Virus genome (UHGV): UHGV-0217794
Length of the DNA stretch: 27,591 nt
Direction: 5' to 3' (one strand)
Origin: a virus
In this document: positions 4,924 through 25,630 of the stretch, in pieces
Position numbering within the stretch: position 1 is the first letter of the stretch
How the letters are laid out: every line of letters begins with the position of its first letter
Notes under the pieces: model-generated
Told to the model about the DNA's origin: nothing
Databases searched by the model: none
What the model saw: only the letters and a program-made list of their open reading frames with translations
Position numbers and translations under genes: made by a program

Positions 4924-5298
4924 ATGCTCATAGATTTGGTTTTACCTTACCCGCCGACGGTGAACACTTACTGGCGACGCCGTGGCAGCACATATTTTAT
5001 CTCGGAGGAGGGAAAGCGTTATCGCCGGGCTGTGGCGCTTATTGTTCGCCAGCAGCGGCTGAAATTAAGCCTGTCCGGAAGGCTGGCGATAAAGGTGATT
5101 GCAGAGCCACCGGATAAGCGTCGTCGCGACCTGGACAATATCCTGAAAGCACCGCTGGATGCGCTGACGCATGCGGGAGTGTTAATGGACGATGAGCAGT
5201 TTGATGAAATCAATATCGTTCGTGGTCAGCCAGTATCTGGTGGACGTCTGGGGGTGAAGATTTACCCCATAATGCATGAAGAGCAGGTCAAAAAATGA
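4924..5298 (+). CDS. rusA: crossover junction endodeoxyribonuclease RusA (Holliday junction resolvase)
   Basis: 124-aa protein starting MLIDLVLPYPPTVNTYWRRRG with conserved acidic residues (RRDLDNILKAPLDAL); AAGAGGTGA RBS; typical position just upstream of Q. Confidence 0.88.
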   Translation: MLIDLVLPYPPTVNTYWRRRGSTYFISEEGKRYRRAVALIVRQQRLKLSLSGRLAIKVIAEPPDKRRRDLDNILKAPLDALTHAGVLMDDEQFDEINIVRGQPVSGGRLGVKIYPIMHEEQVKK

Positions 5299-6116
5299 AA
5301 CTGGAAGATTTACCGAAATACTACTCCCCAAAATCCCCTTGCCTGACCGATGCATCGGCCTCAACGTCAAAAGATGCGCTGAGTATCACTGATGTGATGG
5401 CCGCGCAGGGCATGACACAGAATCGGGCTGAGATGGGGTTTTCTGCGTTCCTGGGGAAAATGGGCATCAGTATGAATGACAGGGCGCGGGCAACAGAATT
5501 ACTGGCAGATTATGCACTCAGTCGGTGCGATCGTGTGGCGGCGTTGAGAAAACTTCCGGCAGAAATAAAACCGGTAGTGATGCGCATTATGGCTTCGTAC
5601 GCTTTTGAGGATTATGCCCGCAGCGCAGCGAGTAAAAAGCAGTGCCCTTGTTGCTATGGGGAAAAATTTATTGAAAGCGTAGTTTTTACAAACAAGGTCC
5701 AGTATCCGGATGGTAAGCCGCCGGTATGGGCAAAGTGTACGAAAGGTGTGTATCCGTCTTACTGGGAAGAATGGAAAAAAGTCAGGGAGGTGGTAAAAGT
5801 TGCCTGTCCGGAGTGTGGCGGAAAGGGTGAGGTTTCCACCGCCTGTAAGGATTGCCGTGGGCGTGGTGTCGCCATTCACCGTGAAGAGTCGGTAAAACGT
5901 GGTATGCCTGTTATCAGAGACTGCCAGCGTTGTGGTGGTCGTGGCTATGAAAGACTACCATCAACGGAGGCATTTAATGCTATATGCGAGGTGACAAACC
6001 AGATAACACGCGCGTCATGGGAAAAAACAGTTAAGAAATTCTATGATGCGCTGGTGACCCGGTTTGATATTGAAGAAGCATGGGCTGAGCGGCAGTTAAA
6101 AAAGGTAACTAGGTAA
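5295..6116 (+). CDS. late-gene antiterminator, Q family (non-lambda type, multiple CxxC zinc motifs)
   Basis: 273-aa protein with CPCC...C and CPECGGKG...CKDCRGRG...CQRCGGRG motifs; ATGA overlap with rusA; directly followed by a promoter-terminator unit and the late region. Confidence 0.8.
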   Translation: MKLEDLPKYYSPKSPCLTDASASTSKDALSITDVMAAQGMTQNRAEMGFSAFLGKMGISMNDRARATELLADYALSRCDRVAALRKLPAEIKPVVMRIMASYAFEDYARSAASKKQCPCCYGEKFIESVVFTNKVQYPDGKPPVWAKCTKGVYPSYWEEWKKVREVVKVACPECGGKGEVSTACKDCRGRGVAIHREESVKRGMPVIRDCQRCGGRGYERLPSTEAFNAICEVTNQITRASWEKTVKKFYDALVTRFDIEEAWAERQLKKVTR

Positions 6117-6259: not shown

Positions 6260-6335
6260 GGCCCTTTAGCTCAGTGGTGAGAGCGAGCGACTCATAATCG
6301 CCAGGTCGCTGGTTCAAATCCAGCAAGGGCCACCA
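6260..6335 (+). tRNA. ileZ: tRNA with CAU anticodon, most likely tRNA-Ile2 (lysidine-modified, reads AUA; ileX/ileZ-like); elongator tRNA-Met not excluded
   Basis: 76-nt cloverleaf: acceptor GGCCCTT/AAGGGCC, D-arm GCTCAGTGGTGAGAGC, anticodon loop CTCATAA, T-arm GCTGGTTCAAATCCAGC, 3' ACCA; close to my recollection of E. coli ileX. Confidence 0.85.
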
Positions 6336-6435: not shown

Positions 6436-6512
6436 GCGTTGTTAGCTCAGCCGGACAGAGCAATTGCCTTCTAAGCAATCGGTCACTAGTTCGAATCCAG
6501 TACAGCGCGCCA
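6436..6512 (+). tRNA. tRNA-Arg (anticodon UCU, reads AGA/AGG; argN/argO/argU-like)
   Basis: 77-nt cloverleaf: acceptor GCGTTGT/ACAGCGC, D-arm TAGCTCAGCCGGACAGAGC, anticodon loop with TCT, T-loop GTTCGAATCC, 3' GCCA; one mismatch in the T-stem. Confidence 0.8.
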
Positions 6513-7509: not shown

Positions 7510-7938
7510 ATGGGTTTTCGTAGCGCATCAATTCTTACGTTGATTATTAGTGGGATTATTATCGGGTGCACTGATGCTGTATCGACAAATTATCATGACC
7601 GTACATCATATTACTCCGATAAAGCAATAGAGACACAGTATGTGAGTTCATCTGAACGTACTTCTGATGTTAGTGAGGATATCCGTCTGTATGCCCATCA
7701 AATCAAGAGCGCCATCGAAAAACAGTTCGGGGATGCGAGTAAGTATTCAGGAAAAGAGTGTACACTGAGAATGCATATGGCCCCGAATGGCCTTCTACTG
7801 GAGGTTAAAAGAGAAAGTGGAGACCTCGATTTATGTCGTGAAGCGATGAATGCGATAAAGAATGCTGATATACCTGCCCCCCCTTCGCCGGAAGTATATA
7901 AAGTATTTCAAAATGGGGTGCTGGATTTTAAACCCTGA
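7510..7938 (+). CDS. lipoprotein with TolA domain-III-like C-terminal domain (142 aa)
   Basis: Signal peptide with lipobox IIGC; C-terminal about 85 aa (YAHQIKSAIEKQFGDASKYSGKECTLRMHMAPNGLLLEVKRESGDLDLCREAMNAIKNADIPAPPSPEVYKVFQNGVLDFKP) aligns residue-by-residue with my recollection of the E. coli TolA C-terminus (YAGQIKSAIESKFYDASSYAGKTCTLRIKLAPDGMLLDIKPEGGDPALCQAALAAAKLAKIPKPPSQAVYEVFKNAPLDFKP). Confidence 0.8.
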   Translation: MGFRSASILTLIISGIIIGCTDAVSTNYHDRTSYYSDKAIETQYVSSSERTSDVSEDIRLYAHQIKSAIEKQFGDASKYSGKECTLRMHMAPNGLLLEVKRESGDLDLCREAMNAIKNADIPAPPSPEVYKVFQNGVLDFKP

Positions 7939-8088: not shown

Positions 8089-8484
8089 GTGGGATTAAAG
8101 AAAATCGTTATGTTGACTTTTTGGGTCGGTTTTGTTGCGGGATGCACACCTTTACACCCTTCAGATTGCCACAAAACTACTGCTACAGGTAGTTGCAGTT
8201 CAGGACGCTGGGATGATCAGGATGAATGGGGGGCGCAAGCGCGGGGAATCAGAGCTGCAATTAATGCCAAACTTGATGAGCCGCATAACTGGAAAGGGAA
8301 AAAATGCAGGTTGCATATGGAATTCTCTCAGGATGGCACGGCGTTAAAAATATCTACCAGTAACGGTGATAAAGCCTATTGCGAAGCGATAAAGTCCGCA
8401 GCTCATAAAGCCAAATTTCCGGCCTTCAACAATCCGGAAGTCTACAGAGATTTTCAGAAATCTGGCTTTGACATGCGAGGTTAG
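8089..8484 (+). CDS. second lipoprotein, divergent paralog of the TolA-III-like lipoprotein (131 aa, GTG start)
   Basis: Signal peptide with lipobox VAGC; C-terminus shares the K-C-L ... G ... GD ... C ... A ... A-FP ... VY ... F ... D pattern with the upstream lipoprotein; GAGGAG RBS 6 nt before GTG. Confidence 0.75.
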   Translation: MGLKKIVMLTFWVGFVAGCTPLHPSDCHKTTATGSCSSGRWDDQDEWGAQARGIRAAINAKLDEPHNWKGKKCRLHMEFSQDGTALKISTSNGDKAYCEAIKSAAHKAKFPAFNNPEVYRDFQKSGFDMRG

Positions 8485-11829: not shown

Positions 11830-12014
11830 TCGCGGAAAAAGGCTAGTTTTTGCATTTCCATGGCGGCGGCAGCATGTTTGGTAATTTATTGATAATTAAA
11901 AGTTATTTCCCTTTTCACCTGTACAATATTTTTTTCTTCCTGTCATTAGACCAGTTTGCAATTAATTGAAATATATAAATAAACCTGATTTTCACCTGCC
12001 AGATGGAGTTGCTT

Positions 12015-12542
12015 ATGTCAAATGTGAGCGGGATCGGTGATGCTTATTACTGGAGTGTTTTTAAAATCGCCGAGGCCTTTGGGCTTCACCGGGACACAGT
12101 AAAAAAACGGCTCCTCGCGGCCAACACTCCTGTGGCTGCGACTGTCAGGGGGAACCCCGTTTACGCCCTGCAGCATGTCGGGCCCGCCCTGTTTAGTGTG
12201 AAGCATGAGGGAGCAGACTCTGTTCATGATCCATCCCGTATGGAGCCGAAAGAGAGAAAGGACTGGTACCAGTCTGAAAATGAAAGGATCAAGCTGGAAA
12301 AGGAGCAGCGAAAACTCATCCCAGTTGATGAAGTAGTCATCGTCTATTCGTCCATGAGAAAGGCTGTCGTCCAGGTTCTGGAGACAATTCCGGATGTTCT
12401 TGAACGCGATTGCGCTCTGACTCCTCAGGCCGTCGGCGTTGTACAGCAGGCCATTGATGACCTGCGATACACTCTTCAGGAAAAATCCTACGAGGCTTGT
12501 GCTGCTGAATTAATTCCTGATGAGGAAGGAGAGAGTCTCTAG
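12015..12542 (+). CDS. terminase small subunit (Nu1-like)
   Basis: About 175-aa protein with N-terminal HTH-like segment, immediately upstream of the large terminase; GGAG RBS; start could alternatively be ATG 12003. Confidence 0.7.
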   Translation: MSNVSGIGDAYYWSVFKIAEAFGLHRDTVKKRLLAANTPVAATVRGNPVYALQHVGPALFSVKHEGADSVHDPSRMEPKERKDWYQSENERIKLEKEQRKLIPVDEVVIVYSSMRKAVVQVLETIPDVLERDCALTPQAVGVVQQAIDDLRYTLQEKSYEACAAELIPDEEGESL

Positions 12543-12550
12543 GAGGAATA

Positions 12551-14650
12551 ATGGGTTTTTCATCAGCCCGAAATTTGGGAAGGGACATATCGGCAGGATT
12601 TTCCCCACCACGTCGCATGCCGATTTCGGAGGCTGTTAAAAAATTCATGCGTGTTCCCAAGGGGGCTGGTAACTCGGTGCCATGGGATCCTGAACTGACA
12701 CCCTACATCATTGAGCCCATGAACTGCCTGGCATCGCGTGAATACGATGCGGTGATTTTTGTTGGTCCTGCGCGAACAGGGAAGACCATTGGTCTGATCG
12801 ATGGATGGATTGTCTATACCATCGTTTGCGATCCTTCGGACATGCTCGTTGTGCAGATGACCGAAGATAAGGCCCGCGAGCATTCTAAAAAGCGCCTCGA
12901 CAGAACGTTCAGAAGCAGTGCGGCGGTAAAGAAAAGAATGAGTCCACGTCGTAACGACAATAATGTCCATGATAAGACGTTCAGGGATGGCTCGTTCCTT
13001 AAAATTGGTTGGCCCTCGGTCAACATTATGTCGTCGTCGGATTACCGGTTTGTCGCCTTAACCGATTACGACCGTTTTCCGGAGAATATCGACAGCGAGG
13101 GTGATGGTTTCTCCCTGGCCTCAAAACGTACCACCACATTTATGTCCGCCGGGATGACTCTGGTGGAGAGCTCGCCGGGACGTGACATCTGCGACAGCAA
13201 ATGGCGACGTAAGTCGCCTCATGAAGCGCCACCGACGACTGGTATTCTTTCCCTTTACAATCGTGGTGACCGCCGCCGCTGGTACTGGCCATGTCCGCAC
13301 TGCGGTGAATATTTTCAGCCAGCTATGGATGCCATGACCGGCTACCGTAATGAACCGGATCCCTTTAAAGCCAGTGAGGCGGCGTATCTACTTTGCCCGC
13401 ACTGCAGCGGCATTATCACTGCGGAGAAAAAGCGTGAGCTCAATAGTGCAGGAGTCTGGTTGCGTGAAGGTCAGGTCATTGATCGTAACGGCAACGTTTC
13501 CGGTGAACCGCGCCGCTCCCGTATCGCCAGTTTCTGGATGGAAGGGCCAGCTGCTGCGTATCAGACCTGGGCGCAACTGGTTTACAAATTACTGACTGCA
13601 GAACAGGAGTATGAAGCGACAGGAAGCGAAGAAACACTCAGGGCGGTTATCAACACCGACTGGGGATTGCCTTATCTTCCTCGTGCCAGCATGGAGCAAC
13701 GAAAAAGTGAACTGCTTGAGCAGCGGGCAGAGCCAGTTCCTTCCTGCAGTGTGCCGGATGGCGTTAATTTCCTTGTGGCGACAGTGGATGTTCAGGCGGG
13801 ACGTCATCGCCGTTTTGTGGTTCAGGTAACTGGCTATGGCAGTCGTGGCGAACGCTGGATTATTGATCGTTACAATATCACGCAGTCATTGCGCAGTGAC
13901 TGCGACGGGGAGAGCCAGCGAATTGATCCGGCCAGCTATCCGGAAGACTGGGATGTCCTGCTGACGGATGTTTTTCATAAAAGCTGGCCGCTGGCCTCCG
14001 ATCCTTCTCAACAAATGCGACTGATGGCAATGGCGGTGGACTCCGGCGGTGAAGACGGGGTCACTGATAATGCCTATAAATTCTGGCGTCGTTGCCGTCG
14101 TGATGGCCTTGGTAAACGTATTTACCTGTTTAAGGGCGACAGCATCCGGCGCGCAAAACTGATCACCCGTACATTCCCTGATAACACCGGACGAACGGGC
14201 CGACGGGCGCAGGCCGCAGGTGATGTGCCGCTCTGGCTTCTTCAGACGGATGCACTGAAAGACCGGGTGAATAACGCGTTATGGCGTGACTCGCCAGGTC
14301 CCGGCTATGTGCATTTCCCTGACTGGCTGGGGAGCTGGTTTTACGACGAACTGACGTATGAAGAGCGGAGCAGTGACGGGAAATGGAGTAAGCCGGGTCG
14401 CGGTGCCAACGAAGCTTTTGACCTGATGGTGTATGCCGAGGCTCTGGTCATTCTGCATGGATACGAAAAGATCCGCTGGCCGGATGCACCGGAGTGGGCG
14501 AGCCGGGAAACCTGGCTGGAGTGTGTCCCGGACAGTACCGAACCGTCACCCTCACCGGAACCGGTATCCACGCCTGTTAAAAAACAAAAACGGAAGAAAA
14601 CAGTAACTGACGATGTTAACCCCTGGCTGACTTCCGGAGGATGGTTATGA
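12551..14650 (+). CDS. terminase large subunit (lambda gpA family)
   Basis: 699-aa protein with Walker-A-like GPARTGKT and a CPHCGEYFQ motif (lambda gpA has CPHCGEEQY); AGGAGGA RBS. Confidence 0.9.
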   Translation: MGFSSARNLGRDISAGFSPPRRMPISEAVKKFMRVPKGAGNSVPWDPELTPYIIEPMNCLASREYDAVIFVGPARTGKTIGLIDGWIVYTIVCDPSDMLVVQMTEDKAREHSKKRLDRTFRSSAAVKKRMSPRRNDNNVHDKTFRDGSFLKIGWPSVNIMSSSDYRFVALTDYDRFPENIDSEGDGFSLASKRTTTFMSAGMTLVESSPGRDICDSKWRRKSPHEAPPTTGILSLYNRGDRRRWYWPCPHCGEYFQPAMDAMTGYRNEPDPFKASEAAYLLCPHCSGIITAEKKRELNSAGVWLREGQVIDRNGNVSGEPRRSRIASFWMEGPAAAYQTWAQLVYKLLTAEQEYEATGSEETLRAVINTDWGLPYLPRASMEQRKSELLEQRAEPVPSCSVPDGVNFLVATVDVQAGRHRRFVVQVTGYGSRGERWIIDRYNITQSLRSDCDGESQRIDPASYPEDWDVLLTDVFHKSWPLASDPSQQMRLMAMAVDSGGEDGVTDNAYKFWRRCRRDGLGKRIYLFKGDSIRRAKLITRTFPDNTGRTGRRAQAAGDVPLWLLQTDALKDRVNNALWRDSPGPGYVHFPDWLGSWFYDELTYEERSSDGKWSKPGRGANEAFDLMVYAEALVILHGYEKIRWPDAPEWASRETWLECVPDSTEPSPSPEPVSTPVKKQKRKKTVTDDVNPWLTSGGWL

Positions 14651-14859
14651 ACCAGAATGATATCGAAGCCATGATTCAGCGTTATACGGAAGCTGAAATG
14701 GCGGTGCTGGACGGAAAATCCGTCACCTTTAATGGTCAGCAGATGACCATGGAAAACTTATCTGAGATCCGGCAGGGACGGCAGGAGTGGGAGCGCCGCC
14801 TTGCGGCTCTGATTACACGACGACGGGGGCATCCCGGGTACCGGCTGGCGAGGTTCTGA
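14647..14859 (+). CDS. head-tail joining protein (lambda gpW-like)
   Basis: About 70-aa protein ending RRRGHPGYRLARF (lambda W ends RRRGPAGFYV); overlaps the terminase stop. Confidence 0.8.
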   Translation: MNQNDIEAMIQRYTEAEMAVLDGKSVTFNGQQMTMENLSEIRQGRQEWERRLAALITRRRGHPGYRLARF

Positions 14860-16367
14860 TGGCAATTCTTGATGATGTGATTGGCGTTTTTTCACCAGGA
14901 TGGAAAGCGGCAAGGCTGCGTTCCCGGGCGGTGATCCAGGCTTATGAGGCCGTAAAAACGACGCGGACACACAAAGCCCGGCGGGAAAACCGAACTGCCG
15001 ACCAGTTAAGCCTCTACGGGGCCGTGTCGTTACGTGAGCAGGCCCGTTACCTTGATAACAACCACGATCTGGTCATTGGTGTATTTGACAAGCTGGAAGA
15101 ACGGGTGGTGGGGAAAAACGGGATTATTGTCGAGCCACATCCGGTATTACGCAATGGGGCCATTGCCCGTGATCTGGCAGCGGAGATACGCACCCGATGG
15201 AGTGAATGGTCTGTCAGTCCGGAAGTTACCGGGCAGTTTACCCGTCCGATGCTGGAACGTCTGATGCTGCGTACCTGGCTGCGCGATGGTGAGGTGTTTG
15301 CCCAGATGGTTTCCGGGCGCATAAACAGCCTGACGCCTTCTGCCGGTGTTCATTTCTGGCTGGAGGCACTCGAGCCAGACTTTATTCCCATGACCAGTGA
15401 TGAGAGCAACAGGCTGAATCAGGGCGTGTTTGTTGATGACTGGGGGCGTCCCGAAAAATATCTGGTGTATAAAAGTCGTCCTGTATCCGGACGGCAGATG
15501 GAAACCAAAGAAGTGGATGCAGAGCGAATGCTGCATCTTAAATTTGTTCGCCGTCTGCACCAGATGCGCGGGACGTCTTTATTGTCCGGTGTGCTGATCC
15601 GCCTCAGTGCCCTGAAAGAATATGAAGATTCTGAGCTGACTGCAGCAAGGATCGCTGCTGCTCTGGGGATGTACATCCGCAAAGGCGACGGACAGAGCTA
15701 TGAAACGGATGGTAATGACAGCAAGGAGAATGAACGCGAGCTTACCATTCAGCCAGGCATTATTTACGACGATCTGAAACCCGGCGAAGAAATCGGAATG
15801 GTGAAGTCGGATCGCCCCAATCCTAACCTTGAAACTTTTCGTAATGGTCAGTTGCGTGCCGTGGCGGCGGGCAGTCGTCTGAGTTTTTCCAGTACAGCGC
15901 GCAACTATAACGGCACTTACAGCGCCCAGCGTCAGGAGCTGGTTGAATCCACTGATGGCTACCTGATCCTGCAGGACTGGTTTATTGGTGCCGTCACCCG
16001 CCCGATGTATCGTGCCTGGCTGAAACAGGCTGTGGCATCCGGTGTTATCAGGCTACCCCGCGATCTTGACCGTTCTTCACTGTATACCGCGGTGTATTCC
16101 GGACCGGTGATGCCGTGGATTGACCCTGTTAAGGAGGCTGAGGCCTGGAAAATTCAGATTCGTGGTGGAGCGGCGACAGAATCAGACTGGGTACGTGCAG
16201 GTGGTCGTAATCCGGATGATGTCAAACGTCGGCGCAAGGCAGAAATTGATGAAAACCGCAAGCTGGATCTGGTATTTGATACCGATCCGGCCAGTGATAA
16301 AGGAGGCAGCAGTGCCGCAACGAAACGACAGGAGCCGCAGCACACCGACGACCAGTCCGAAGAATAA
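14859..16367 (+). CDS. portal protein (lambda gpB-like)
   Basis: About 502 aa; ATG overlaps the W stop (TGATG); position between W and the prohead protease. Confidence 0.85.
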   Translation: MAILDDVIGVFSPGWKAARLRSRAVIQAYEAVKTTRTHKARRENRTADQLSLYGAVSLREQARYLDNNHDLVIGVFDKLEERVVGKNGIIVEPHPVLRNGAIARDLAAEIRTRWSEWSVSPEVTGQFTRPMLERLMLRTWLRDGEVFAQMVSGRINSLTPSAGVHFWLEALEPDFIPMTSDESNRLNQGVFVDDWGRPEKYLVYKSRPVSGRQMETKEVDAERMLHLKFVRRLHQMRGTSLLSGVLIRLSALKEYEDSELTAARIAAALGMYIRKGDGQSYETDGNDSKENERELTIQPGIIYDDLKPGEEIGMVKSDRPNPNLETFRNGQLRAVAAGSRLSFSSTARNYNGTYSAQRQELVESTDGYLILQDWFIGAVTRPMYRAWLKQAVASGVIRLPRDLDRSSLYTAVYSGPVMPWIDPVKEAEAWKIQIRGGAATESDWVRAGGRNPDDVKRRRKAEIDENRKLDLVFDTDPASDKGGSSAATKRQEPQHTDDQSEE

Positions 16368-16380
16368 TTCCTGGTTCAGG

Positions 16381-18339
16381 ATGCAGGCTGGTCACCAGAG
16401 TGACGCGGATATTTATATTTATGACGAGATTGGTTTCTGGGGTGTTACAGCGAAGCAGTTTATCAGTGATCTGAATGCACTGGGCGATATCACCCACATT
16501 AATCTCCATATCAATTCACCGGGTGGCGATGTCTTTGAAGGCATCGCCATTTTTAATGCGCTGAAAACACATGGTGCGTCCATTACCGTTTATGTCGACG
16601 GTGTGGCGGCGTCAATGGCGTCGGTCATTGCGATGGTGGGAAACCCGGTCATTATGCCGGAAAACACCTTCATGATGATTCATAAACCATTTGGCTTTAC
16701 GGGCGGTGATGCGGAGGACATGCGCACCTATGCCGACCTGCTCGATAAGGTTGAGGCGGTTCTGTTACCCGCTTATGCACAGAAAACCGGGAAAACCACC
16801 GATGAAATTGCTGCCATGCTGGCGGATGAGACCTGGATGTCCGGTGCCGAATGTCTGGCACATGGATTTGCTGATCAGGTGACGCCAGCCGTTAAGGCAA
16901 TGGCATGTATTCAGTCAAAACGTACAGAGGAATTTAAAAAGATGCCGGAATCCATTCGAAACATGATTACTCCGCCACGCAACAGTGCTCCACGCGTACA
17001 GGATGATGAACCTGCAGCCTCCCGGACGCCAGTGCAGGCAGCAGCACCCGTGGTGGATGAAAACAGTATCCGTGCGCAGGTACTGGCAGAGCAAAAAGCG
17101 CGTGTAAACGGTATTAATGATCTGTTTGCCATGTTTGGCGGGCGTTATCAGACGCTGCAGGCTCAGTGTCTTGCCGATCCTGAGTGTTCGCTGGAGCAGG
17201 CCCGCGAAAAGCTGTTGAACGAGATGGGGCGCGAGTCCACGCCATCCAATAAAAATACACCGGCTCATATTTATGCTGGTAACGGTAATTTTGTGGGGGA
17301 CGGGATCCGCCAGGCGCTGATGGCGCGTGCCGGATTTGAAAAAACCGAACGTGATAATGTCTACAACGGGATGACCCTGCGTGAATATGCCCGTATGTCA
17401 CTGACTGAACGGGGTATTGGGGTTTCCGGTTATAACCCGATGCAGATGGTCGGTGCGGCGTTCACCCACAGTACGTCTGACTTCGGTAATATTCTGCTGG
17501 ATGTTGCGAACAAAGCCATTCTGCAGGGCTGGGAAGATGCTCCTGAAACCTATGAACAATGGACGCGGAAAGGTCAGTTGTCTGATTTTAAAATTGCCCA
17601 TCGTGTGGGTATGGGGGGCTTCAGTGCTCTGCGTCAGGTGCGTGAAGGGGCGGAATATAAATACGTCACCACCGGAGATAAACAGGCCACTATTGCACTG
17701 GCGACCTATGGCGAGCTGTTCAGTATCACCCGTCAGGCCATTATCAATGATGATCTGAATATGCTGACCGATGTCCCGATGAAACTGGGCCGTGCGGCGA
17801 AATCCACTATTGCCGATCTGGTTTATGCCATTCTGACGTCTAACCCGAAAATCTCCACAGATAATGTAAGTCTGTTCGATAAAGCGAAACATGCAAACGT
17901 ACTGGAGAGCGCTGCAATGGACGTGGCATCGCTGGATAAAGCCCGCCAGTTGATGCGCGTTCAGAAAGAGGGGGAGCGTCATCTGAATATTCGTCCTGCG
18001 TTCGTACTGGTACCGACGGCGATGGAGTCTGTTGCTAACCAGGTCATTCGCTCCTCAAGTGTCAAGGGGGCTGACATTAACGCCGGTATTATTAACCCGG
18101 TGAAAGATTTTGCGACCGTTATTGCAGAGCCTCGTCTTGATGATAACAGCCAGACCACCTTCTACCTGGCTGCGTCAAAAGGCTCCGATACGATTGAAGT
18201 GGCTTATCTCAACGGTGTGGATACGCCATATATTGATCAGATGGAGGGCTTCAGTGTGGATGGCGTGACAACGAAAGTGCGTATTGACGCCGGTGTCGCG
18301 CCAGTTGATCACCGCGGTCTGGTGAAATGTACGGCGTAA
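16381..18339 (+). CDS. prohead protease (ClpP/S14-like) - scaffold-like linker - major capsid protein, single fused ORF (652 aa)
   Basis: N-terminus has ClpP-type motifs (YDEIGFWGV ... INSPGGDV ... VAASMASVIAM); central coiled-coil-like segment; C-terminal about 350 aa capsid-like; no in-frame stop between domains. Confidence 0.75.
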   Translation: MQAGHQSDADIYIYDEIGFWGVTAKQFISDLNALGDITHINLHINSPGGDVFEGIAIFNALKTHGASITVYVDGVAASMASVIAMVGNPVIMPENTFMMIHKPFGFTGGDAEDMRTYADLLDKVEAVLLPAYAQKTGKTTDEIAAMLADETWMSGAECLAHGFADQVTPAVKAMACIQSKRTEEFKKMPESIRNMITPPRNSAPRVQDDEPAASRTPVQAAAPVVDENSIRAQVLAEQKARVNGINDLFAMFGGRYQTLQAQCLADPECSLEQAREKLLNEMGRESTPSNKNTPAHIYAGNGNFVGDGIRQALMARAGFEKTERDNVYNGMTLREYARMSLTERGIGVSGYNPMQMVGAAFTHSTSDFGNILLDVANKAILQGWEDAPETYEQWTRKGQLSDFKIAHRVGMGGFSALRQVREGAEYKYVTTGDKQATIALATYGELFSITRQAIINDDLNMLTDVPMKLGRAAKSTIADLVYAILTSNPKISTDNVSLFDKAKHANVLESAAMDVASLDKARQLMRVQKEGERHLNIRPAFVLVPTAMESVANQVIRSSSVKGADINAGIINPVKDFATVIAEPRLDDNSQTTFYLAASKGSDTIEVAYLNGVDTPYIDQMEGFSVDGVTTKVRIDAGVAPVDHRGLVKCTA

Positions 18340-18362
18340 ACGTCGCAGACAACAACTCTGAT

Positions 18363-18382
18363 GGCCCGTAAGGGCTTTTTTT
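18363..18382 (+). terminator. short GC hairpin plus T7 after the capsid gene (attenuator-type terminator)
   Basis: GGCCC-GTAA-GGGC followed by TTTTTTT, 24 nt after the capsid stop; a second 7-bp hairpin (CAGCCCC/GGGGCTG) follows at 18394-18412. Confidence 0.45.
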
Positions 18383-18425
18383 GTACCTGAAATCAGCCCC
18401 TGAACGGGGCTGTGCGGAGACAGTT

Positions 18426-18749
18426 ATGGCAAAGAATTTTGTAGAAGAAGGAAAAACGGTGGCGATTGTTGCCAGTGCAGCCATCAGCAGCGGAGAGCTG
18501 GTGCAGGTGGGTGATGTTTTTGCGGTGGCGCTGACCGATATTCCACAGGGTGAAACAGGCGACGGCATGACCGAAGGTGTGTTTATGCTGCCTAAGCTGA
18601 AAACGGATGACATGAAAACGGGTAAGAAGGTTTATCTGAAGTCCGGAAAAGTTCAGCTGACTAACAGCGGCTCTGATCCGCTGGTCGGGGTTGTCTGGGC
18701 AGATGCCGGAACCAGTGCAGAAGAAGTGCCGGTAAAACTCAATGTCTGA
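18426..18749 (+). CDS. small head protein (decoration/DUF2190-like, about 107 aa)
   Basis: ATG 18426 with GGAGA RBS; small Gly/Val-rich protein directly after the capsid gene; family assignment tentative. Confidence 0.55.
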   Translation: MAKNFVEEGKTVAIVASAAISSGELVQVGDVFAVALTDIPQGETGDGMTEGVFMLPKLKTDDMKTGKKVYLKSGKVQLTNSGSDPLVGVVWADAGTSAEEVPVKLNV

Positions 18750-19017
18750 TCCCTTTTCCCGGCTGGCAGCGCGTATGGATGCGATCACGGTCAGAAAGAT
18801 GGGAAAGACAGCCTCGATTAATGATGTCGATATGACTGTGATCCCGGGAGAAACACTGGCAGAGCTGAATGCTCTGTCCGGACCTGCGGTCTCTCTGGTG
18901 GTGTTTTCTTCGGGATACCGCCCACGGCGCGGGGATCGCGTTGTTTATGACGGACAACAATGGACGGTCACACGGCATGAACGCTTTAACGGTAAGCCAA
19001 TGATCTTTATTGAGTAA
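18742..19017 (+). CDS. head-tail connector, lambda gpFII-like
   Basis: C-terminal RRGDRVVYDGQQWTVTRHE resembles the lambda FII RRGDTLTIGEENFWVDR region; position between head and tail genes. Confidence 0.6.
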   Translation: MSDPFSRLAARMDAITVRKMGKTASINDVDMTVIPGETLAELNALSGPAVSLVVFSSGYRPRRGDRVVYDGQQWTVTRHERFNGKPMIFIE

Positions 19018-19028
19018 AGAGGTGTGGG

Positions 19029-19619
19029 ATGAAGGGGCTTGAGAATGCCATCCGCAATCTGAACAGCCTTGATACCCGTATGGTGCCACAGGCCAGCGCA
19101 TGGGCGATAAACCGTGTGGCACAGAAAGCGGTCTCGGTTGCCACCCGGCAGGTTGCCGGGAATACCGTTGCGGGAGATAACCAGGTGAAAGGGATCCCCC
19201 TGAAACTGGTACGTCAGCGTGTCCGGGTGTTTAAAGCCAGTCCGTCAGGAAAAATGACGGCCAGGATCCGCGTTAACCGGGGCAATCTGCCCGCCATCAA
19301 ACTGAACACAACACGGCGGCGTGCTGGTGAAGGACTGAGAGTGGGAAAATACTTTTTCCGGGGGGCATTTGTTCAGCAACTGGCGAATGGCCGCTGGCAT
19401 GTTCTGAGGCGTCTTCCTGAAGCGCGTTTTGCAACAGGGCATGACCATCAGGGCAGGCCAAGAAAAAATCGTCTTCCTGTGGAGGTAGTGAAAATCCCGC
19501 TGTCCGGACCGCTGACACAGGCATTTGAAGATGCCCGCAACCACATCATTGCTGCGGAAATGCCGAAACAGCTGGGGTATGCACTGAAACAACAACTGAG
19601 GTTATGGCTGACCCGATGA
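19029..19619 (+). CDS. minor tail protein Z (lambda gpZ-like)
   Basis: MKGLENAIRNL ... GAFVQQLANGRWHV ... LGYALKQQLRLWLTR parallels lambda Z (AIKGLEQAVENL ... GAFIQQLKNGRWHV ... LGYALQHQLRMVIKR). Confidence 0.9.
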   Translation: MKGLENAIRNLNSLDTRMVPQASAWAINRVAQKAVSVATRQVAGNTVAGDNQVKGIPLKLVRQRVRVFKASPSGKMTARIRVNRGNLPAIKLNTTRRRAGEGLRVGKYFFRGAFVQQLANGRWHVLRRLPEARFATGHDHQGRPRKNRLPVEVVKIPLSGPLTQAFEDARNHIIAAEMPKQLGYALKQQLRLWLTR

Positions 19620-20017
19620 ACCGACATACACAAATCCGCCAGGTCGTACTGGCACGCCTTCGGGAACAGTGTGGAGACAGCGCCACGTTTTTTGACGGGC
19701 TTCCGGCATTTATTGATGCGCAGGAACTGCCTGCCGTGGCGGTGTGGCTGAGTGATGCTCAGTACACCGGAAAAATGACGGATGAAGATGACTGGCAGGC
19801 TGTTCTGCATATTGCCGTCTTCATCCGGGCACAGGCACCGGATTCAGAGCTGGATATGTGGATGGAGAGCACCATTTTCCCGGCCCTGAATGATGTACCG
19901 GCATTTTCCGGACTCATCGACACCCTGAACCCACTCGGTTTTAACTATCAACGTGATAATGAGATGGCCACCTGGGCGATGGCGGAAATCACGTACCAGA
20001 TCACGTACACGAATTAA
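19616..20017 (+). CDS. minor tail protein U (lambda gpU-like)
   Basis: ATFFDGLPAFIDAQELPAVAVWLSDAQYTG ... PDSELDMWMES parallels lambda U (ATFFDGRPAVFDEADFPAVAVYLTGAEYTG ... PDSELDAWMES); ATGA overlap with Z. Confidence 0.9.
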   Translation: MNRHTQIRQVVLARLREQCGDSATFFDGLPAFIDAQELPAVAVWLSDAQYTGKMTDEDDWQAVLHIAVFIRAQAPDSELDMWMESTIFPALNDVPAFSGLIDTLNPLGFNYQRDNEMATWAMAEITYQITYTN

Positions 20018-20027
20018 GGAGGTGGTA

Positions 20028-20771
20028 ATGACCACACCAAATCCACTGGCAAAGACGAAAGGTGCGGGGACGACGTTCTGGATGTATACCGGCAACGGCG
20101 ATGCGTTTGCGAACCCTTTGTCGGACACTGACTGGCTGCGTCTTGCGATGGTGAAGGATCTGCAACCTGGCGAAATGACCGCTGATGCAGAAGATGACAC
20201 TTATCTCGATGATGAAGATGCAGACTGGAAAACGACAACCCAGGGGCAGAAATCCGTTGGTGATACTTCGGCGACGCTGGCCTGGCGTCCGGGTGACAGC
20301 GGGCAGAAAAAACTGGTTCAGTTGTTCGACTCCGGTGAAGTCTGCGCGTTTCGTATCAAATATCCCAACGGCACTGTTGATGTTTTCCGTGGCTGGCTGA
20401 GCTCACTGGGTAAAACCATTGCCTCAAAAGACGTGATGACCCGCACTGTGAAAATCAGCGGTGTGGGGCGTCCGTATCTGGCAGAGGAAGGCACTGAAAC
20501 CGTGAGCGTTACCGGGCTGACAGTATCACCGGCGTCTGCCAATGTAAAAGTGGGAGCAACCACCACGCTGACCTTTACAGTAAAACCTGACGGAGCCAGT
20601 GACAAAGCGATCAGTGTGCATTCGTCAGATCCACAGACTGCCACGGTTACCCTGAACGGACTTGTGGCCACGGTAAAAGGCGTGAAGCAGGGCAGTGTCA
20701 GCATTGTGGGCATGACCGCTGACGGGAATTTTGTGGCTGTGACTGCGGTGACTGTCAGCGCAGCAGGTTAA
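20028..20771 (+). CDS. major tail protein V (lambda gpV-like, C-terminal Ig-like domain)
   Basis: KGAGTTFWMYTGNGDAFANPLSD ... YLDDEDADW ... NGTVDVFRGW conserved relative to lambda V; GGAGGTGG RBS. Confidence 0.9.
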   Translation: MTTPNPLAKTKGAGTTFWMYTGNGDAFANPLSDTDWLRLAMVKDLQPGEMTADAEDDTYLDDEDADWKTTTQGQKSVGDTSATLAWRPGDSGQKKLVQLFDSGEVCAFRIKYPNGTVDVFRGWLSSLGKTIASKDVMTRTVKISGVGRPYLAEEGTETVSVTGLTVSPASANVKVGATTTLTFTVKPDGASDKAISVHSSDPQTATVTLNGLVATVKGVKQGSVSIVGMTADGNFVAVTAVTVSAAG

Positions 20772-20791
20772 CAGGACGATACTCATCATTT

Positions 20792-20815
20792 GCCCCGGTT
20801 ATGCGGGGCTTTTTT
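20792..20815 (+). terminator. intrinsic terminator/attenuator after the major tail gene (stem GCCCCG/CGGGGC, T6)
   Basis: 6-bp GC stem plus TTTTTT, 14 nt before the G start codon. Confidence 0.5.
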
Positions 20816-20828
20816 GCAGGTGGAGAAC

Positions 20829-21218
20829 ATGATGTTTCTGAAACAGGACACGTTTAATTATGAAAAACAGTCCGTGGTGCTCAGTGAGCTGTCCGGGCTG
20901 CAGAGAATTGAATATCTGACGTTTGTTCAGCAGCGAACGGCAAAGTTTGATGCCGTGGAGGGAGAACTGCCGGAGGCTGAACGACAGATTGCTTTTCTGC
21001 GGATGGGGATGGATATCAATGCCTGGCTGGTTTCCCGCTCACTGTGGAATGCGGATCAGTCTAAGGATGTAGAGACGCTTTGCGCATCCGTTATTACAAC
21101 ATGGTCGTATGATGCCCTGGGTGCGGGGGCGGAGATGGTTCTGTCGCTGAGCGGTATGGGGGCCATTGATAATGCCGTGGATGATGAGCATGAGGCGCTG
21201 ACGCCGGAAAAGTCCTGA
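20829..21218 (+). CDS. tail assembly chaperone G (lambda gpG-like)
   Basis: MMFLKQDTFNYEKQSVVLSELSGLQRIEYL parallels lambda G (MFLKTESFEHNGVTVTLSELSALQRIEHL); start may be ATG 20829 or 20832. Confidence 0.85.
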   Translation: MMFLKQDTFNYEKQSVVLSELSGLQRIEYLTFVQQRTAKFDAVEGELPEAERQIAFLRMGMDINAWLVSRSLWNADQSKDVETLCASVITTWSYDALGAGAEMVLSLSGMGAIDNAVDDEHEALTPEKS

Positions 21219-24500: not shown

Positions 24501-24593
24501 AAGGTGGTTTATGACCTTGGGAAAAAAGCGGCAGCGGACTTTATGCAACAGCAGGCCCGTGATGGTGGTCGGTTAAGTGGAGCATATCGGTAA
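21528..24593 (+). CDS. tail tape measure protein (lambda gpH-like)
   Basis: About 1021-aa protein, long Ala/Gln/Arg-rich coiled-coil regions, position between G-T and M; GGAGG RBS. Confidence 0.9.
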   Translation: MDQIANLVIDLGIDAAEFKNEIPRIKNLLNGAASDAERSSARMQRFMERQTQAARQTTQAASSAATAASVHAQTVEKNAQAHERMAREVEKTRQRMEALSQKMREEQAQAIALAEAQDKAAAAFYRQIDSVKQASAGLQELQRIQQQIRQARNSGGIGQQDYLALISEVTAKTRVLTQAEAEATRQKVAFIRQLKEQATRQNLSSSELLRARAAQLGVSSAAEVYIRKMERAGKATHSLGLKSAAARQEIGVLIGELARGNLGALRGSGITLANRAGWIDTLMSPKGMMLGGVIGGITAAVYGLGKAWYDGQKEGEEFNRQLSLTGHYAGVTAGQLWTLSRAISGNGITQHAAAGALAQVVGSGAFRGNDIGMVARAAAQMERSVGQSVSDTINQFKRLKDDPVNAAKSLDNELHFLTATQLEQIRVLGEQGRSSDAARIAMSALAEETGRRTADIDNNLNALGSTLQTLSDWWKQFWDAAMNIGREDSLDAQIATLQEKVSRAKRLPWTASSSQVEYDQQRLNDLQEKKRQKDLQDAKEQAERNYQEQQKRRNAENAALNRMNETEAARHQREIARINAMQYADQAVRDAAIQRENERYEKALASGKKKTRETRNDEATRLLLQYSQQQAQVEGQIAAARQSAGIATERMTEAHKQLLALQQRISDLDGKKLTADEKSVLARKDELIQALTLLDVKQQELQKQTALNELKKKTIQLTSQLAEEERAQRQQHDLDIATVGMGDQQRQRYQVQLSLRQKYQQQLEQLRRDSEQKGTYNTDDYRKAEQALTESLNRQLNENRRYWQQLEVVQGNWKNGVLRAFQDFTVDADNTAETAEQVFSSAFSNMGNGLATFVTTGKLNFKSFTSSVLSDMAKILAQATMMKSIKGIGSVLGFDLSSLSLNANGGIYQSADLSRYSGTVVNRPTFFAFAKGAGVMGEAGPEAILPLRRGADGKLGVVADIGGSGMAMFSPQYNIEINNDGTNGQIGPAALKVVYDLGKKAAADFMQQQARDGGRLSGAYR

Positions 24594-24922
24594 TGGAGAC
24601 GTTTCACTGGAAAGTGCGCCCGGATATGAATGTGGTATCAGAGCCGAAAGTGGTGACAGTGAAGCTGGGCGATGGTTATGAACAGCGTCGTGCGGCGGGA
24701 CTGAATAACCAGTTGTCGACTTACAGCGTGACGATACGTGTTCGTAAATGTGAACACCCATCTTTAAAAGCCTTTCTGGAACGGCACGGTGGCGTCCGCG
24801 CATTTCAGTGGACGCCACCTTATGACTGGAGGCCGATCAGGGTGGTTTGTCGTAAATGGTCGGCAAGCGTGGGGGCGCTGTGGGTAACCATAACGGCAGA
24901 TTTTGAACAGGTCGTGGCATAG
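24593..24922 (+). CDS. minor tail protein M (lambda gpM-like)
   Basis: 109 aa; METFHWKVRPDM ... GDGYEQR ... ERHGG ... WTPPYDWRPIRVVC ... DFEQVV parallels lambda M. Confidence 0.9.
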   Translation: METFHWKVRPDMNVVSEPKVVTVKLGDGYEQRRAAGLNNQLSTYSVTIRVRKCEHPSLKAFLERHGGVRAFQWTPPYDWRPIRVVCRKWSASVGALWVTITADFEQVVA

Positions 24923-24931
24923 GAGGCCCTG

Positions 24932-25630
24932 ATGCAGGATATTCCACAGGAAACACATCATGAGACGACACGCCTTACTCAGTCAGCCCTGGTGGTGCTC
25001 TGGGAAATCGATCTGACAGAGGTCGGTGGTGAACGTTATTTTTTCTGTAATGAGCAGAACGAAAAAGGTGAGCCGGTCACCTGGCAGGGGCGGCAGTATC
25101 AGGCATACCCCATTCAGGGGACGGGATTTGAACTGAACGGTAAGGGCAGTGCTGCCCGTCCGACACTGACGGTCTCTAACCTGCACGGCATGGTCACCGG
25201 GATGGCGGAAGACCTGCAGAGTCTGGTCGGCGGAACGGTGGTCAGGCGTAAGGTTTACGCCCGTTTTCTGGATGCGGTGAACTTCGTCAACGGAAACAGC
25301 GACGCCGATCCGGAGCAGGAGGTGATCAGCCGCTGGCGCATCGAGCAGTGCAGCGAACTGAGTGCGGTCAGTGCCTCCTTTGTGCTCTCCACACCGACGG
25401 AAACGGATGGTGCTGTTTTTCCGGGGCGCATCATGCTGGCCAACACCTGCACCTGGACCTATCGCGGTGATGAGTGCGGTTATCATGGTCCGGCTGTCGC
25501 GGATGAATATGACCAGCCGACGTCCGATATCACGAAGGATAAATGCAGCAAATGCCTGAGCGGCTGTAAGTTTCGCAATAACGTCGGCAACTTTGGCGGC
25601 TTCCTTTCCATTAACAAACTTTCGCAGTAA
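24932..25630 (+). CDS. minor tail protein L (lambda gpL-like)
   Basis: 232 aa, lambda-L-sized, with C-terminal Cys cluster (CSKCLSGCKFRNN); AGGAGG RBS. Confidence 0.9.
   Translation: MQDIPQETHHETTRLTQSALVVLWEIDLTEVGGERYFFCNEQNEKGEPVTWQGRQYQAYPIQGTGFELNGKGSAARPTLTVSNLHGMVTGMAEDLQSLVGGTVVRRKVYARFLDAVNFVNGNSDADPEQEVISRWRIEQCSELSAVSASFVLSTPTETDGAVFPGRIMLANTCTWTYRGDECGYHGPAVADEYDQPTSDITKDKCSKCLSGCKFRNNVGNFGGFLSINKLSQ

What the first reader, a model, noticed from the sequence alone, without database searches (positions are those of the whole stretch)
16381..18339. Single-ORF fusion of ClpP-like prohead protease, scaffold-like segment and major capsid protein
The protease motifs, a coiled-coil-like middle and a capsid-like C-terminal half are in one uninterrupted 652-aa frame, whereas lambda itself uses separate C, Nu3 and E genes. 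The capsid module is therefore not lambda-like even though the tail module is, which points to a mosaic junction near the head-tail connector genes. Two hairpins (18363-18412) follow directly, consistent with an attenuator boosting capsid stoichiometry.
Basis: partly seen in the sequence, partly recalled or inferred. Interest (0 to 1): 0.4.

Follow-up and report, generated by a model that had tools for sequence, protein, structure and literature searches.

The report
Known fused protease–scaffold–capsid phage gene
This is an ordinary, already catalogued prophage gene that makes the head protease, a scaffold segment and the coat protein as one chain; it is found in about 39% of complete E. coli genomes and was studied in Salmonella phage Gifsy-2.

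Summary
One uninterrupted + strand frame runs to the stop at 18339. It carries an N-terminal ClpP-type domain (Pfam 4.5e-36), a helical and disordered middle, and a C-terminal HK97-fold capsid domain (Phage_capsid_4, 8e-55).

It is not new. NCBIfam model NF045540, [quoted passage not shown], scores 986 bits against a cutoff of 475. The same gene is 98-99.8% identical in isolated phages (mEp460, cdtI, Tritos, Ayreon). It occurs in 2,125 of 5,426 complete E. coli genomes. The studied archetype is the "tripartite capsid gene" of Gifsy-2 (Effantin 2010).

- **Start codon.** The likely start is GTG 16312, behind AAGGAGG, giving 675 aa. ATG 16381 is probably internal.
- **Mosaicism.** The whole terminase-to-tail block is Gifsy-2-like. 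The sharp rise in identity to lambda comes much later, between tail genes M and L.
- **Hairpins.** Both are real and conserved. The attenuator reading is untested and fits poorly: a Q antiterminator is present, and the next gene encodes a decoration protein probably needed about 1:1 with the coat protein.

One lead is not in the annotations. A conserved internal ATG at 16942 follows a synonymously constrained GAGG motif, so a protease-less scaffold-capsid product may also be made.

The parts
16312..18339 (+). Fused prohead protease-scaffold-major capsid gene with its most likely start (GTG 16312; 675 aa). It overlaps the 3' end of the portal gene by 56 nt.
   Evidence: RefSeq CDS of the 100% identical copy starts here. 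SD energy is -11.6 kcal/mol. Residues upstream of ATG 16381 are conserved. NF045540 scores 985.9 bits against a cutoff of 475.
16300..16306 (+). Shine-Dalgarno AAGGAGG, 5 nt before GTG 16312
   Evidence: the same motif sits before the equivalent GTG in Stx2d phage
16381..18339 (+). Some phage records annotate it this way.
16369..16887 (+). ClpP-like (MEROPS S14) protease domain, residues 20-192 of the 675-aa protein. Ser101 is at 16612-16614, His124 at 16681-16683 and Glu173 at 16828-16830.
   Evidence: Pfam CLP_protease 4.5e-36. NF045542 scores 216 bits. Foldseek to ClpP gives TM about 0.8. Ser and His are invariant in 70/70 and Glu is present in 60/70.
16927..16944 (+). Candidate internal ribosome-binding site (GAGGAA 16927-16932) and in-frame ATG 16942 (Met211 of 675, Met188 of 652). 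It would give a 465-aa scaffold-capsid product without the protease.
   Evidence: comparative evidence only
16984..17049 (+). Pro/Ala/Gln-rich disordered linker (residues 225-246)
   Evidence: pLDDT below 50; length and sequence vary between homologues
17059..17235 (+). Helical scaffold-like segment (helices 250-273, 280-288, 294-308)
   Evidence: AF2 secondary structure. It is also present behind a different protease in NF045541-type fusions.
17236..17289 (+). Disordered junction (residues 309-326). By inference, the region where the maturation cleavage releases the capsid domain.
   Evidence: low pLDDT; indel-prone in homologues; the cleavage site itself was not determined
17290..18336 (+). 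HK97-fold major capsid protein domain (residues 327-675)
   Evidence: Phage_capsid_4 8.3e-55 and Mu-like_gpT 3.7e-08. Weak sequence hits to solved Mu GpT-type capsid proteins 8rkx/8rkc. BFVD capsid proteins match with TM up to 0.79.
18363..18382 (+). Hairpin 1: intrinsic-terminator-like (GGCCC GTAA GGGCT, then T7), 24 nt after the stop
   Evidence: Annotated as a rho-independent terminator in mEp460. A hairpin plus T-run lies within 130 nt of the stop in 41/69 distinct loci, against 4.4% of shuffles, with different stems and loops.
18394..18412 (+). Hairpin 2: CAGCCCC TGAAC GGGGCTG, with no T-run, ending 3 nt before the GGAG (18416-18419) of the next gene
   Evidence: Present in 26/31 closer relatives, with stems changed on both sides, for example CCGGCAC/GTGCCGG in Gifsy-2.
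18426..18749 (+). Head cement/decoration protein gene (107 aa), the partner of this capsid protein
   Evidence: Phage_cement_2 1.5e-20; PHROG 122 head decoration 4.6e-47
14859..16367 (+). Portal gene (lambda portal family), immediately upstream and overlapping the fused gene
   Evidence: Phage_portal_2 9.6e-82; RefSeq coordinates

Best explanation
This is the Gifsy-2-type 'tripartite' capsid gene of a lambdoid E. coli prophage. One polypeptide carries a ClpP-like serine protease, a short helical scaffold-like segment between flexible linkers, and an HK97-fold coat protein. It is most likely 675 aa, starting at GTG 16312. Shown here: the domain content, the open frame, the invariant Ser/His, the gene order (portal, fusion, cement protein) and the wide conservation of the fusion. 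Inferred from the Gifsy-2 work and from HK97 and lambda biology: the C-terminal domains assemble into a T=7 procapsid, with the protease and scaffold parts packed inside. The tethered protease then cuts in the flexible junction around residues 309-326 and degrades the internal parts. The roughly 350-aa coat domain is left to expand, and trimers of the downstream cement protein bind it. The terminator-like hairpin right after the stop, and the second hairpin in front of the cement gene, are conserved RNA-level elements. They most likely shape mRNA 3' ends, mRNA stability or cement-gene translation, rather than switching the operon off.
For: Domains are established. The curated family model NF045540 scores 985.9 bits against a cutoff of 475. 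The gene is 98-99.8% identical at nucleotide level in plaque-forming or induced phages mEp460, cdtI, Tritos, Ayreon, phi458 and HannyBb. It is 65.7% identical in protein to the Gifsy-2 fused gene, and the whole structural block is collinear with Gifsy-2. [quoted passage not shown] The gene is present in 2,125 of 5,426 complete E. coli genomes and is named as this fusion by RefSeq. Ser101 and His124 are invariant in 70 homologues down to 34% identity. Hairpin conservation is shown.
Against: Nothing contradicts the identification. No experiment on this exact gene was found. I could not read Effantin et al. 2010, so the assembly pathway rests on citing papers and my own recollection of its abstract. 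The cleavage site and the mature N-terminus are unknown. The third catalytic residue is Glu, not the Asp of cellular ClpP. If every coat subunit carried a protease, about 415 protease domains would have to fit inside one procapsid, which raises the question addressed by the internal-start lead. That figure is my own estimate for a T=7 shell, not a tool result.
Confidence: 0.92

Rival explanations
1. Two nested products. Besides the full-length chain, ribosomes start at the internal ATG 16942 behind GAGGAA and make a 465-aa scaffold-capsid protein without the protease. Most coat subunits would then be protease-free, and the full-length form would supply a minority of proteases, as lambda does with Nu3 nested in C.
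For: The ATG and a GAGG/GGAG motif 8-12 nt upstream co-occur in 38 of 53 distinct fused genes. The motif is built from different codon pairs. None of the 15 genes without the ATG has such a motif. The three lowest synonymous-entropy windows of 525 in the gene lie on the motif. Glu206 is the only invariant column among 26 conserved Glu columns, and it uses the minority codon GAG. The Met is invariant within a variable linker.
Against: The GAGG core is 11 nt from the ATG, which is long. The duplex energy is only -6.0 kcal/mol, at about the 7-9th percentile of in-frame positions. A window of synonymous entropy this low somewhere in the gene is expected by chance (1198 of 2000 permutations). The ATG-bearing genes may form one clade, so the co-occurrence is not a set of independent events. 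The Met is not conserved in the wider family. The motif could also be a by-product of a conserved Glu-Glu/Asp-Phe peptide.
Confidence: 0.3
2. The hairpins form an attenuator or partial terminator that lowers transcription of everything downstream, and so raises capsid protein relative to later genes.
For: Hairpin 1 has the form of an intrinsic terminator and is annotated as one in mEp460. Its position is conserved despite sequence turnover. A similar element follows the major tail gene at 20792-20809.
Against: The window encodes a Q-type antiterminator, and Q-modified polymerase reads through terminators (established lambda biology). The very next gene encodes the cement protein, probably needed in about equal copy number to the coat protein. 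The stem is only 4-5 base pairs. The fold energy of the region is not unusual (z = -1.66). Hairpin 2 has no T-run and abuts the next ribosome-binding site, which suggests a role in mRNA stability or translation instead.
Confidence: 0.2
3. [quoted passage not shown]
For: None. Two of 57 IMG/VR loci do have the two domains in different ORFs (L038, L042), which shows that broken copies exist elsewhere.
Against: The frame is identical or near-identical in thousands of independent assemblies and in isolated phages. The fused architecture holds down to about 31-36% identity. A curated family model exists for it.
Confidence: 0.01

Closest known systems
Gifsy-2 tripartite capsid gene (STM1034.3n; Effantin et al. 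2010, Virology 402:355) and NCBIfam NF045540 'ClpP-like prohead protease/major capsid protein fusion protein'
   Same: It has the same three-part architecture and the same flanking genes (lambda-family portal upstream; cement protein and a Gifsy-2-family head-tail protein downstream). Protein identity is 65.7%, and both hairpins follow the stop.
   Different: Only sequence divergence, plus a shorter junction before the capsid domain: Gifsy-2 and LESphi2 carry an 8-residue insert there. It is a member, not a variant.
Phage lambda head genes C / Nu3 / D / E
   Same: Same job and same gene neighbourhood. The terminase gpA family, lambda portal family and Z/U/V tail genes are shared. A trimeric decoration protein is used. 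If the internal start is real, it would be the same nested-start logic as Nu3 inside C.
   Different: Lambda's protease is S49 (SppA-like), not ClpP-like. Protease-scaffold and coat protein are separate genes, with D between them. No sequence similarity was detected for the fusion, cement or FII-like proteins.
HK97 gp4 protease plus gp5 (delta domain-capsid fusion)
   Same: HK97-fold coat protein with its assembly helper attached to its N-terminus and removed by a phage protease (inferred; the fold is shown).
   Different: In HK97 the protease is a separate gene of the S78 family. Here a ClpP-type protease is part of the same chain.
NF045541-type fusions (S78 prohead protease fused to a homologous scaffold-capsid module)
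   Same: The scaffold-like and capsid parts are homologous: the query's residues 197-649 score 402 bits. Twenty IMG/VR loci hold long single ORFs of this kind.
   Different: The N-terminal protease is unrelated. Peptidase_S78 was detected in one of the two examples tested. The score of 402 bits is below that model's cutoff of 525.
Protease-scaffold-capsid fusions of small actinobacteriophages (Microbacterium cluster EE and others; PMC7302621)
   Same: The same idea of one gene for protease, scaffold and HK97-like capsid.
   Different: Different hosts. Sequence relationship to this gene was not tested here.

Membership tests
NF045540 / Gifsy-2-type ClpP-like protease-capsid fusion | Whole-protein score above the curated cutoff of the family model | tested here: met
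   985.9 bits against a cutoff of 475, aligned over residues 9-651 of 652
NF045540 / Gifsy-2-type ClpP-like protease-capsid fusion | ClpP-like domain and HK97-fold capsid domain in one uninterrupted reading frame | tested here: met
NF045540 / Gifsy-2-type ClpP-like protease-capsid fusion | Catalytic serine and histidine of the ClpP fold retained | tested here: met
   Ser101 and His124 (675 numbering) are invariant in 70/70 homologues. The third position is Glu in 60/70, where cellular ClpP has Asp.
NF045540 / Gifsy-2-type ClpP-like protease-capsid fusion | Gene order: portal, fusion, cement/decoration protein, head-tail joining genes | tested here: met
NF045540 / Gifsy-2-type ClpP-like protease-capsid fusion | Self-processing that leaves only the C-terminal domain in the mature T=7 capsid | not testable with these tools
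   Needs virion proteomics or cryo-EM. Known only for Gifsy-2, through the literature.
Lambda-type head module (C/Nu3, D, E) | S49 (SppA-like) protease with nested scaffold, separate gpE coat protein, gpD decoration protein | tested here: not met
   tblastn found no lambda hit for the fusion or cement gene. The best protease family is S14 ClpP, and SppA_dom scores only 22 bits against a cutoff of 155.
HK97-fold major capsid proteins | HK97 fold of the coat domain | tested here: met
   Phage_capsid_4 8.3e-55 and Mu-like_gpT. BFVD capsid proteins match with TM 0.68-0.79. Weak hits to solved Mu GpT-type capsids. The PDB fold search was swamped by ClpP hits.
Intrinsic (rho-independent) terminators | G+C-rich hairpin directly followed by a T-run | tested here: met
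   Hairpin 1 at 18363-18376 plus T7; conserved in position
Intrinsic (rho-independent) terminators | Actual transcript termination at the site | not testable with these tools
   Needs Term-seq or northern blots of an induced lysogen

The most novel reading that the evidence does not exclude
The fused gene may be a nested pair. An internal start at ATG 16942, behind a synonymously constrained GAGG motif, would make a protease-less scaffold-capsid protein as the main building block. The full-length chain would then supply only a minority of tethered proteases. This would explain how tripartite capsid genes set the protease-to-coat ratio. I found no annotation of such a start, but I could not check whether the Gifsy-2 paper considered it.
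Probability: 0.3. Interest if true: 0.4.

Novelty: already known. Interest (0 to 1): 0.15.

Why it matters
As it stands it matters little. The fusion has been described since 2010, has its own curated family model, and is one of the commonest prophage genes in E. coli.

Two practical points follow. Phage records annotate this gene inconsistently, as "head maturation protease", "Nu3", "major head protein" or "protease C", and with three or more different start codons. The comparative data here favour GTG 16312.

If the internal start were confirmed, it would give a simple answer to how a phage that links protease and coat protein in one gene avoids packing one protease per coat subunit.

Tried and rejected
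- **Primary paper.** I tried to read Effantin et al. 2010 by DOI and by PubMed id; it is not held. I relied on papers that cite it.
- **Literature searches.** A search for mEp460 with fusion terms gave nothing relevant. The search for Gifsy-2 with 'fused' gave one irrelevant paper.
- **PDB fold search.** The search with the whole model returned only ClpP chains in the top 50, so it said nothing about the capsid domain. The BFVD search and a sequence search with the C-terminal part alone filled that gap.
- **Split annotation in phage Eeyore.** The second annotated feature under that hit looked like a possible split. It is a short ORF annotated on the opposite strand that overlaps the 3' end, and the fused frame is intact.
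- **Internal start as a family-wide feature.** Rejected: the Met is Ala, Pro, Val or Ile in most distant homologues.
- **Depth of the synonymous-entropy dip.** It is not significant (1198 of 2000 permutations). Only its location at the pre-specified site is notable.
- **Internal promoter in 12-21 kb.** No sigma-70-like site was found, against 6.8 expected.
- **Opposite-strand ORFs inside the gene** (for example 17398..17982, 194 aa). I set these aside without testing them; I did not search them against any family library.

Full report
**1. The observation**

The + strand frame from ATG 16381 to the TAA at 18337-18339 is open and encodes 652 aa. The frame opens earlier, at 16111, with several possible starts.

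Pfam places CLP_protease at residues 23-168 (4.5e-36) and Phage_capsid_4 at residues 352-649 (8.3e-55), with a weaker Mu-like_gpT match. PHROG 133 matches end to end.

An AlphaFold2 model was built on 70 diverse homologues and has mean pLDDT 88.5. In 675-aa numbering it gives:
- a ClpP fold at 20-192;
- a disordered Pro/Ala-rich stretch at 225-246;
- three helices at 250-308;
- a second disordered stretch at 309-326;
- an HK97-like domain at 327-675.

Foldseek matches cellular ClpP structures at TM about 0.8. It also matches viral major capsid proteins at TM up to 0.79. The "coiled-coil-like" middle is better described as a short helical bundle between flexible linkers.

**2. It is a known, named family**

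NCBIfam has a curated model, NF045540, [quoted passage not shown]. The protein scores 985.9 bits against a cutoff of 475.

The same 1,959 bases are 98.3-99.8% identical in isolated phages mEp460, cdtI, Tritos, Ayreon, phi458 and HannyBb, always as one gene. Megablast finds the gene in 2,125 of 5,426 complete E. coli genomes, and RefSeq gives it the fusion name.

The protein database returns thousands of members from Escherichia, Shigella, Salmonella, Citrobacter and Kosakonia. An exhaustive search of 50%-identity cluster representatives lists well over 100 clusters of 640-750 aa that align from about residue 8 to 649, down to 36% identity.

The studied archetype is Salmonella phage Gifsy-2. 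Its fused gene (L004 22471..24561) is 65.7% identical in protein, and its whole structural block is collinear with the window. [quoted passage not shown] Protease-scaffold-capsid fusions are also described in small actinobacteriophages (PMC7302621). I could not obtain Effantin et al. 2010 itself.

**3. The artefact test**

They do not.
- Six phage genomes from E. coli, Salmonella and Pseudomonas keep one open frame.
- Of 57 IMG/VR loci in which both domains were detected, 55 have them in one ORF. The two exceptions, L038 and L042, look like damaged or rearranged copies.
- Twenty further loci have an equally long single ORF in which the homologous scaffold-capsid part sits behind a different N-terminal domain. 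In one of the two examples tested, that domain is a Peptidase_S78 (HK97-type) protease. This corresponds to the sister model NF045541, which matches residues 197-649 of the query.

**4. Start codon**

ATG 16381 has no usable Shine-Dalgarno sequence (-2.2 kcal/mol). GTG 16312 lies 5 nt after AAGGAGG (-11.6 kcal/mol), which is among the best sites in the operon.

RefSeq starts the identical gene at the position equal to 16312, giving 675 aa. In 70 diverse homologues the Met of ATG 16381 is Ile in 40 and Met in only 11. Trp21 (43/70) and Phe/Tyr22 (48/70), just upstream, are conserved. These codons lie beyond the portal stop at 16365-16367, so portal coding cannot explain their conservation. Gifsy-2 and LESphi2 have no ATG at that position. 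The model puts residues 22-26 in a beta-strand. The gene therefore most likely spans 16312-18339 and overlaps the portal gene by 56 nt.

**5. Catalytic residues**

Ser101 (16612-16614) and His124 (16681-16683) are invariant in 70/70 homologues. The position that aligns with the catalytic Asp of cellular ClpP is Glu173 (16828-16830). It is Glu in 60 and Asp in 6 of 70. The domain looks like an active serine protease; activity was not tested.

**6. Comparison with lambda and the mosaic claim**

Lambda has C with nested Nu3, then D, then E. tblastn of the window's ORFs against lambda gives the following.

| Window protein | Identity to lambda |
|---|---|
| TerL | 24% |
| Portal | 21% |
| W-like, fusion, cement, FII-like | no hit |
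| Z | 40% |
| U | 52% |
| V | 54% |
| G | 30% |
| T | 38% |
| H | 26% |
| M | 56% |
| L | 93% |
| K | 87% |
| I/J region | 85-94% |

Against Gifsy-2, every gene from TerS to J matches at 39-77%. The head genes are indeed not lambda's. However, the block is an established Gifsy-2-type arrangement, and head/tail chimerism of Gifsy-2 is noted in the literature (PMC6471424). The only sharp, recent-looking junction with lambda-like DNA lies between M and L, near 24,930.

**7. The hairpins**

Hairpin 1 (GGCCC GTAA GGGCT followed by T7, 18363-18382) and hairpin 2 (CAGCCCC TGAAC GGGGCTG, 18394-18412) are as described. mEp460's record annotates hairpin 1 as a rho-independent terminator.

Among 69 distinct downstream regions from IMG/VR relatives, 41 have a hairpin plus T-run within 130 nt of the stop, usually 20-30 nt after it. 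The rate in shuffles is 4.4%. Stems and loops differ between lineages, which shows turnover under selection for the structure. Hairpin 2 is present in 26 of 31 closer relatives, always just before the GGAG of the cement gene, with stems changed on both sides. A similar terminator-like element follows the major tail gene at 20792-20809.

The features are therefore real and selected. The attenuator reading is doubtful for four reasons:
- the window has a Q-type antiterminator at 5295-6116;
- the next gene encodes the cement protein, probably needed at roughly one copy per coat subunit;
- the stem of hairpin 1 is only 4-5 pairs;
- the fold energy of the region is unremarkable (z = -1.66).

My inference is that the hairpins stabilise processed mRNA ends or tune cement-gene translation. 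This is not shown.

**8. A lead not in the annotations**

Just after the ClpP domain there is an in-frame ATG at 16942, preceded by GAGGAA at 16927-16932. The ATG and an SD-like motif are kept in all six phage genomes compared, including the Pseudomonas one.

In 53 distinct fused genes, 38 have the ATG. All 38 have a GAGG/GGAG motif 8-12 nt upstream, made from different codon pairs. None of the 15 genes without the ATG has such a motif.

In 20 non-redundant enterobacterial sequences, the three lowest of 525 five-codon windows of synonymous entropy lie on this motif. Glu206 is the only invariant column among 26 conserved Glu columns, and it uses the minority codon GAG.

Several points argue against a real start:
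- the spacing is long (11 nt);
- the duplex energy is modest;
- a dip of this depth somewhere in the gene is expected by chance;
- relatedness of the sequences is not controlled;
- the Met is absent from distant homologues.

I rate a real internal start, giving a 465-aa protease-less scaffold-capsid protein analogous to lambda Nu3 within C, at about 0.3.

**9. Verdict**

Interest is low. The corrected start codon, the conserved hairpin pair and the candidate nested start are the only additions.

Noticed in passing
window 16300-16381: The fused gene most likely starts at GTG 16312, behind AAGGAGG, and overlaps the portal gene by 56 nt; it probably does not start at ATG 16381. Public phage records disagree on this start (652, 675, 686, 690 aa forms) and on the product name.
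   Followed up: yes
window 16927-16944: An in-frame internal ATG with an upstream GAGG motif lies right after the protease domain. The motif sits at the point of lowest synonymous variation in the gene. It may be a nested start for a protease-less scaffold-capsid protein.
   Followed up: partly
L060-L087 (e.g. L063 2332-4380, L081 2191-4329): Twenty IMG/VR loci carry an equally long single ORF with a homologous scaffold-capsid part behind a different N-terminal domain. Peptidase_S78 was detected in one of the two tested (L063, not L081). If general, this means two unrelated proteases fused to the same capsid module.
   Followed up: partly
window 20792-20815: A second terminator-like hairpin (GCCCCG GTTATG CGGGGC plus T6) lies right after the major tail protein gene. 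It is annotated as a terminator in mEp460 as well. In this window the two terminator-like hairpins I examined follow the capsid and the major tail genes.
   Followed up: partly
window about 24593-25630: Identity to lambda jumps from 56% (M homologue) to 93% (L) and 87% (K), and stays at 85-94% into the I/J region. This looks like a recent recombination junction in the tail-tip genes.
   Followed up: no
window 16828-16830: The residue aligned with the catalytic Asp of cellular ClpP is Glu in this protein and in 60 of 70 homologues.
   Followed up: partly
window 7510-7938 and 8089-8484: Two adjacent small ORFs encode TolA C-terminal-domain proteins (2.4e-23 and 1.3e-14), between the Q antiterminator and the lysis genes. 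They could be accessory genes that interfere with Tol-dependent entry of colicins or other phages.
   Followed up: no
window 6260-6335 and 6436-6512: Two tRNA genes (Met-CAT and Arg-TCT) lie just downstream of the Q antiterminator gene.
   Followed up: no
window 12000-21000: No sigma-70-like promoter match was found on either strand, against 6.8 expected from shuffles. Terminator-like matches number 27 against 9.1 expected.
   Followed up: no
L038 and L042: In two relatives the protease and capsid parts lie in different ORFs. L042 has a capsid ORF of only 283 aa at 88% identity. These are probably decayed or rearranged prophage copies.
   Followed up: no
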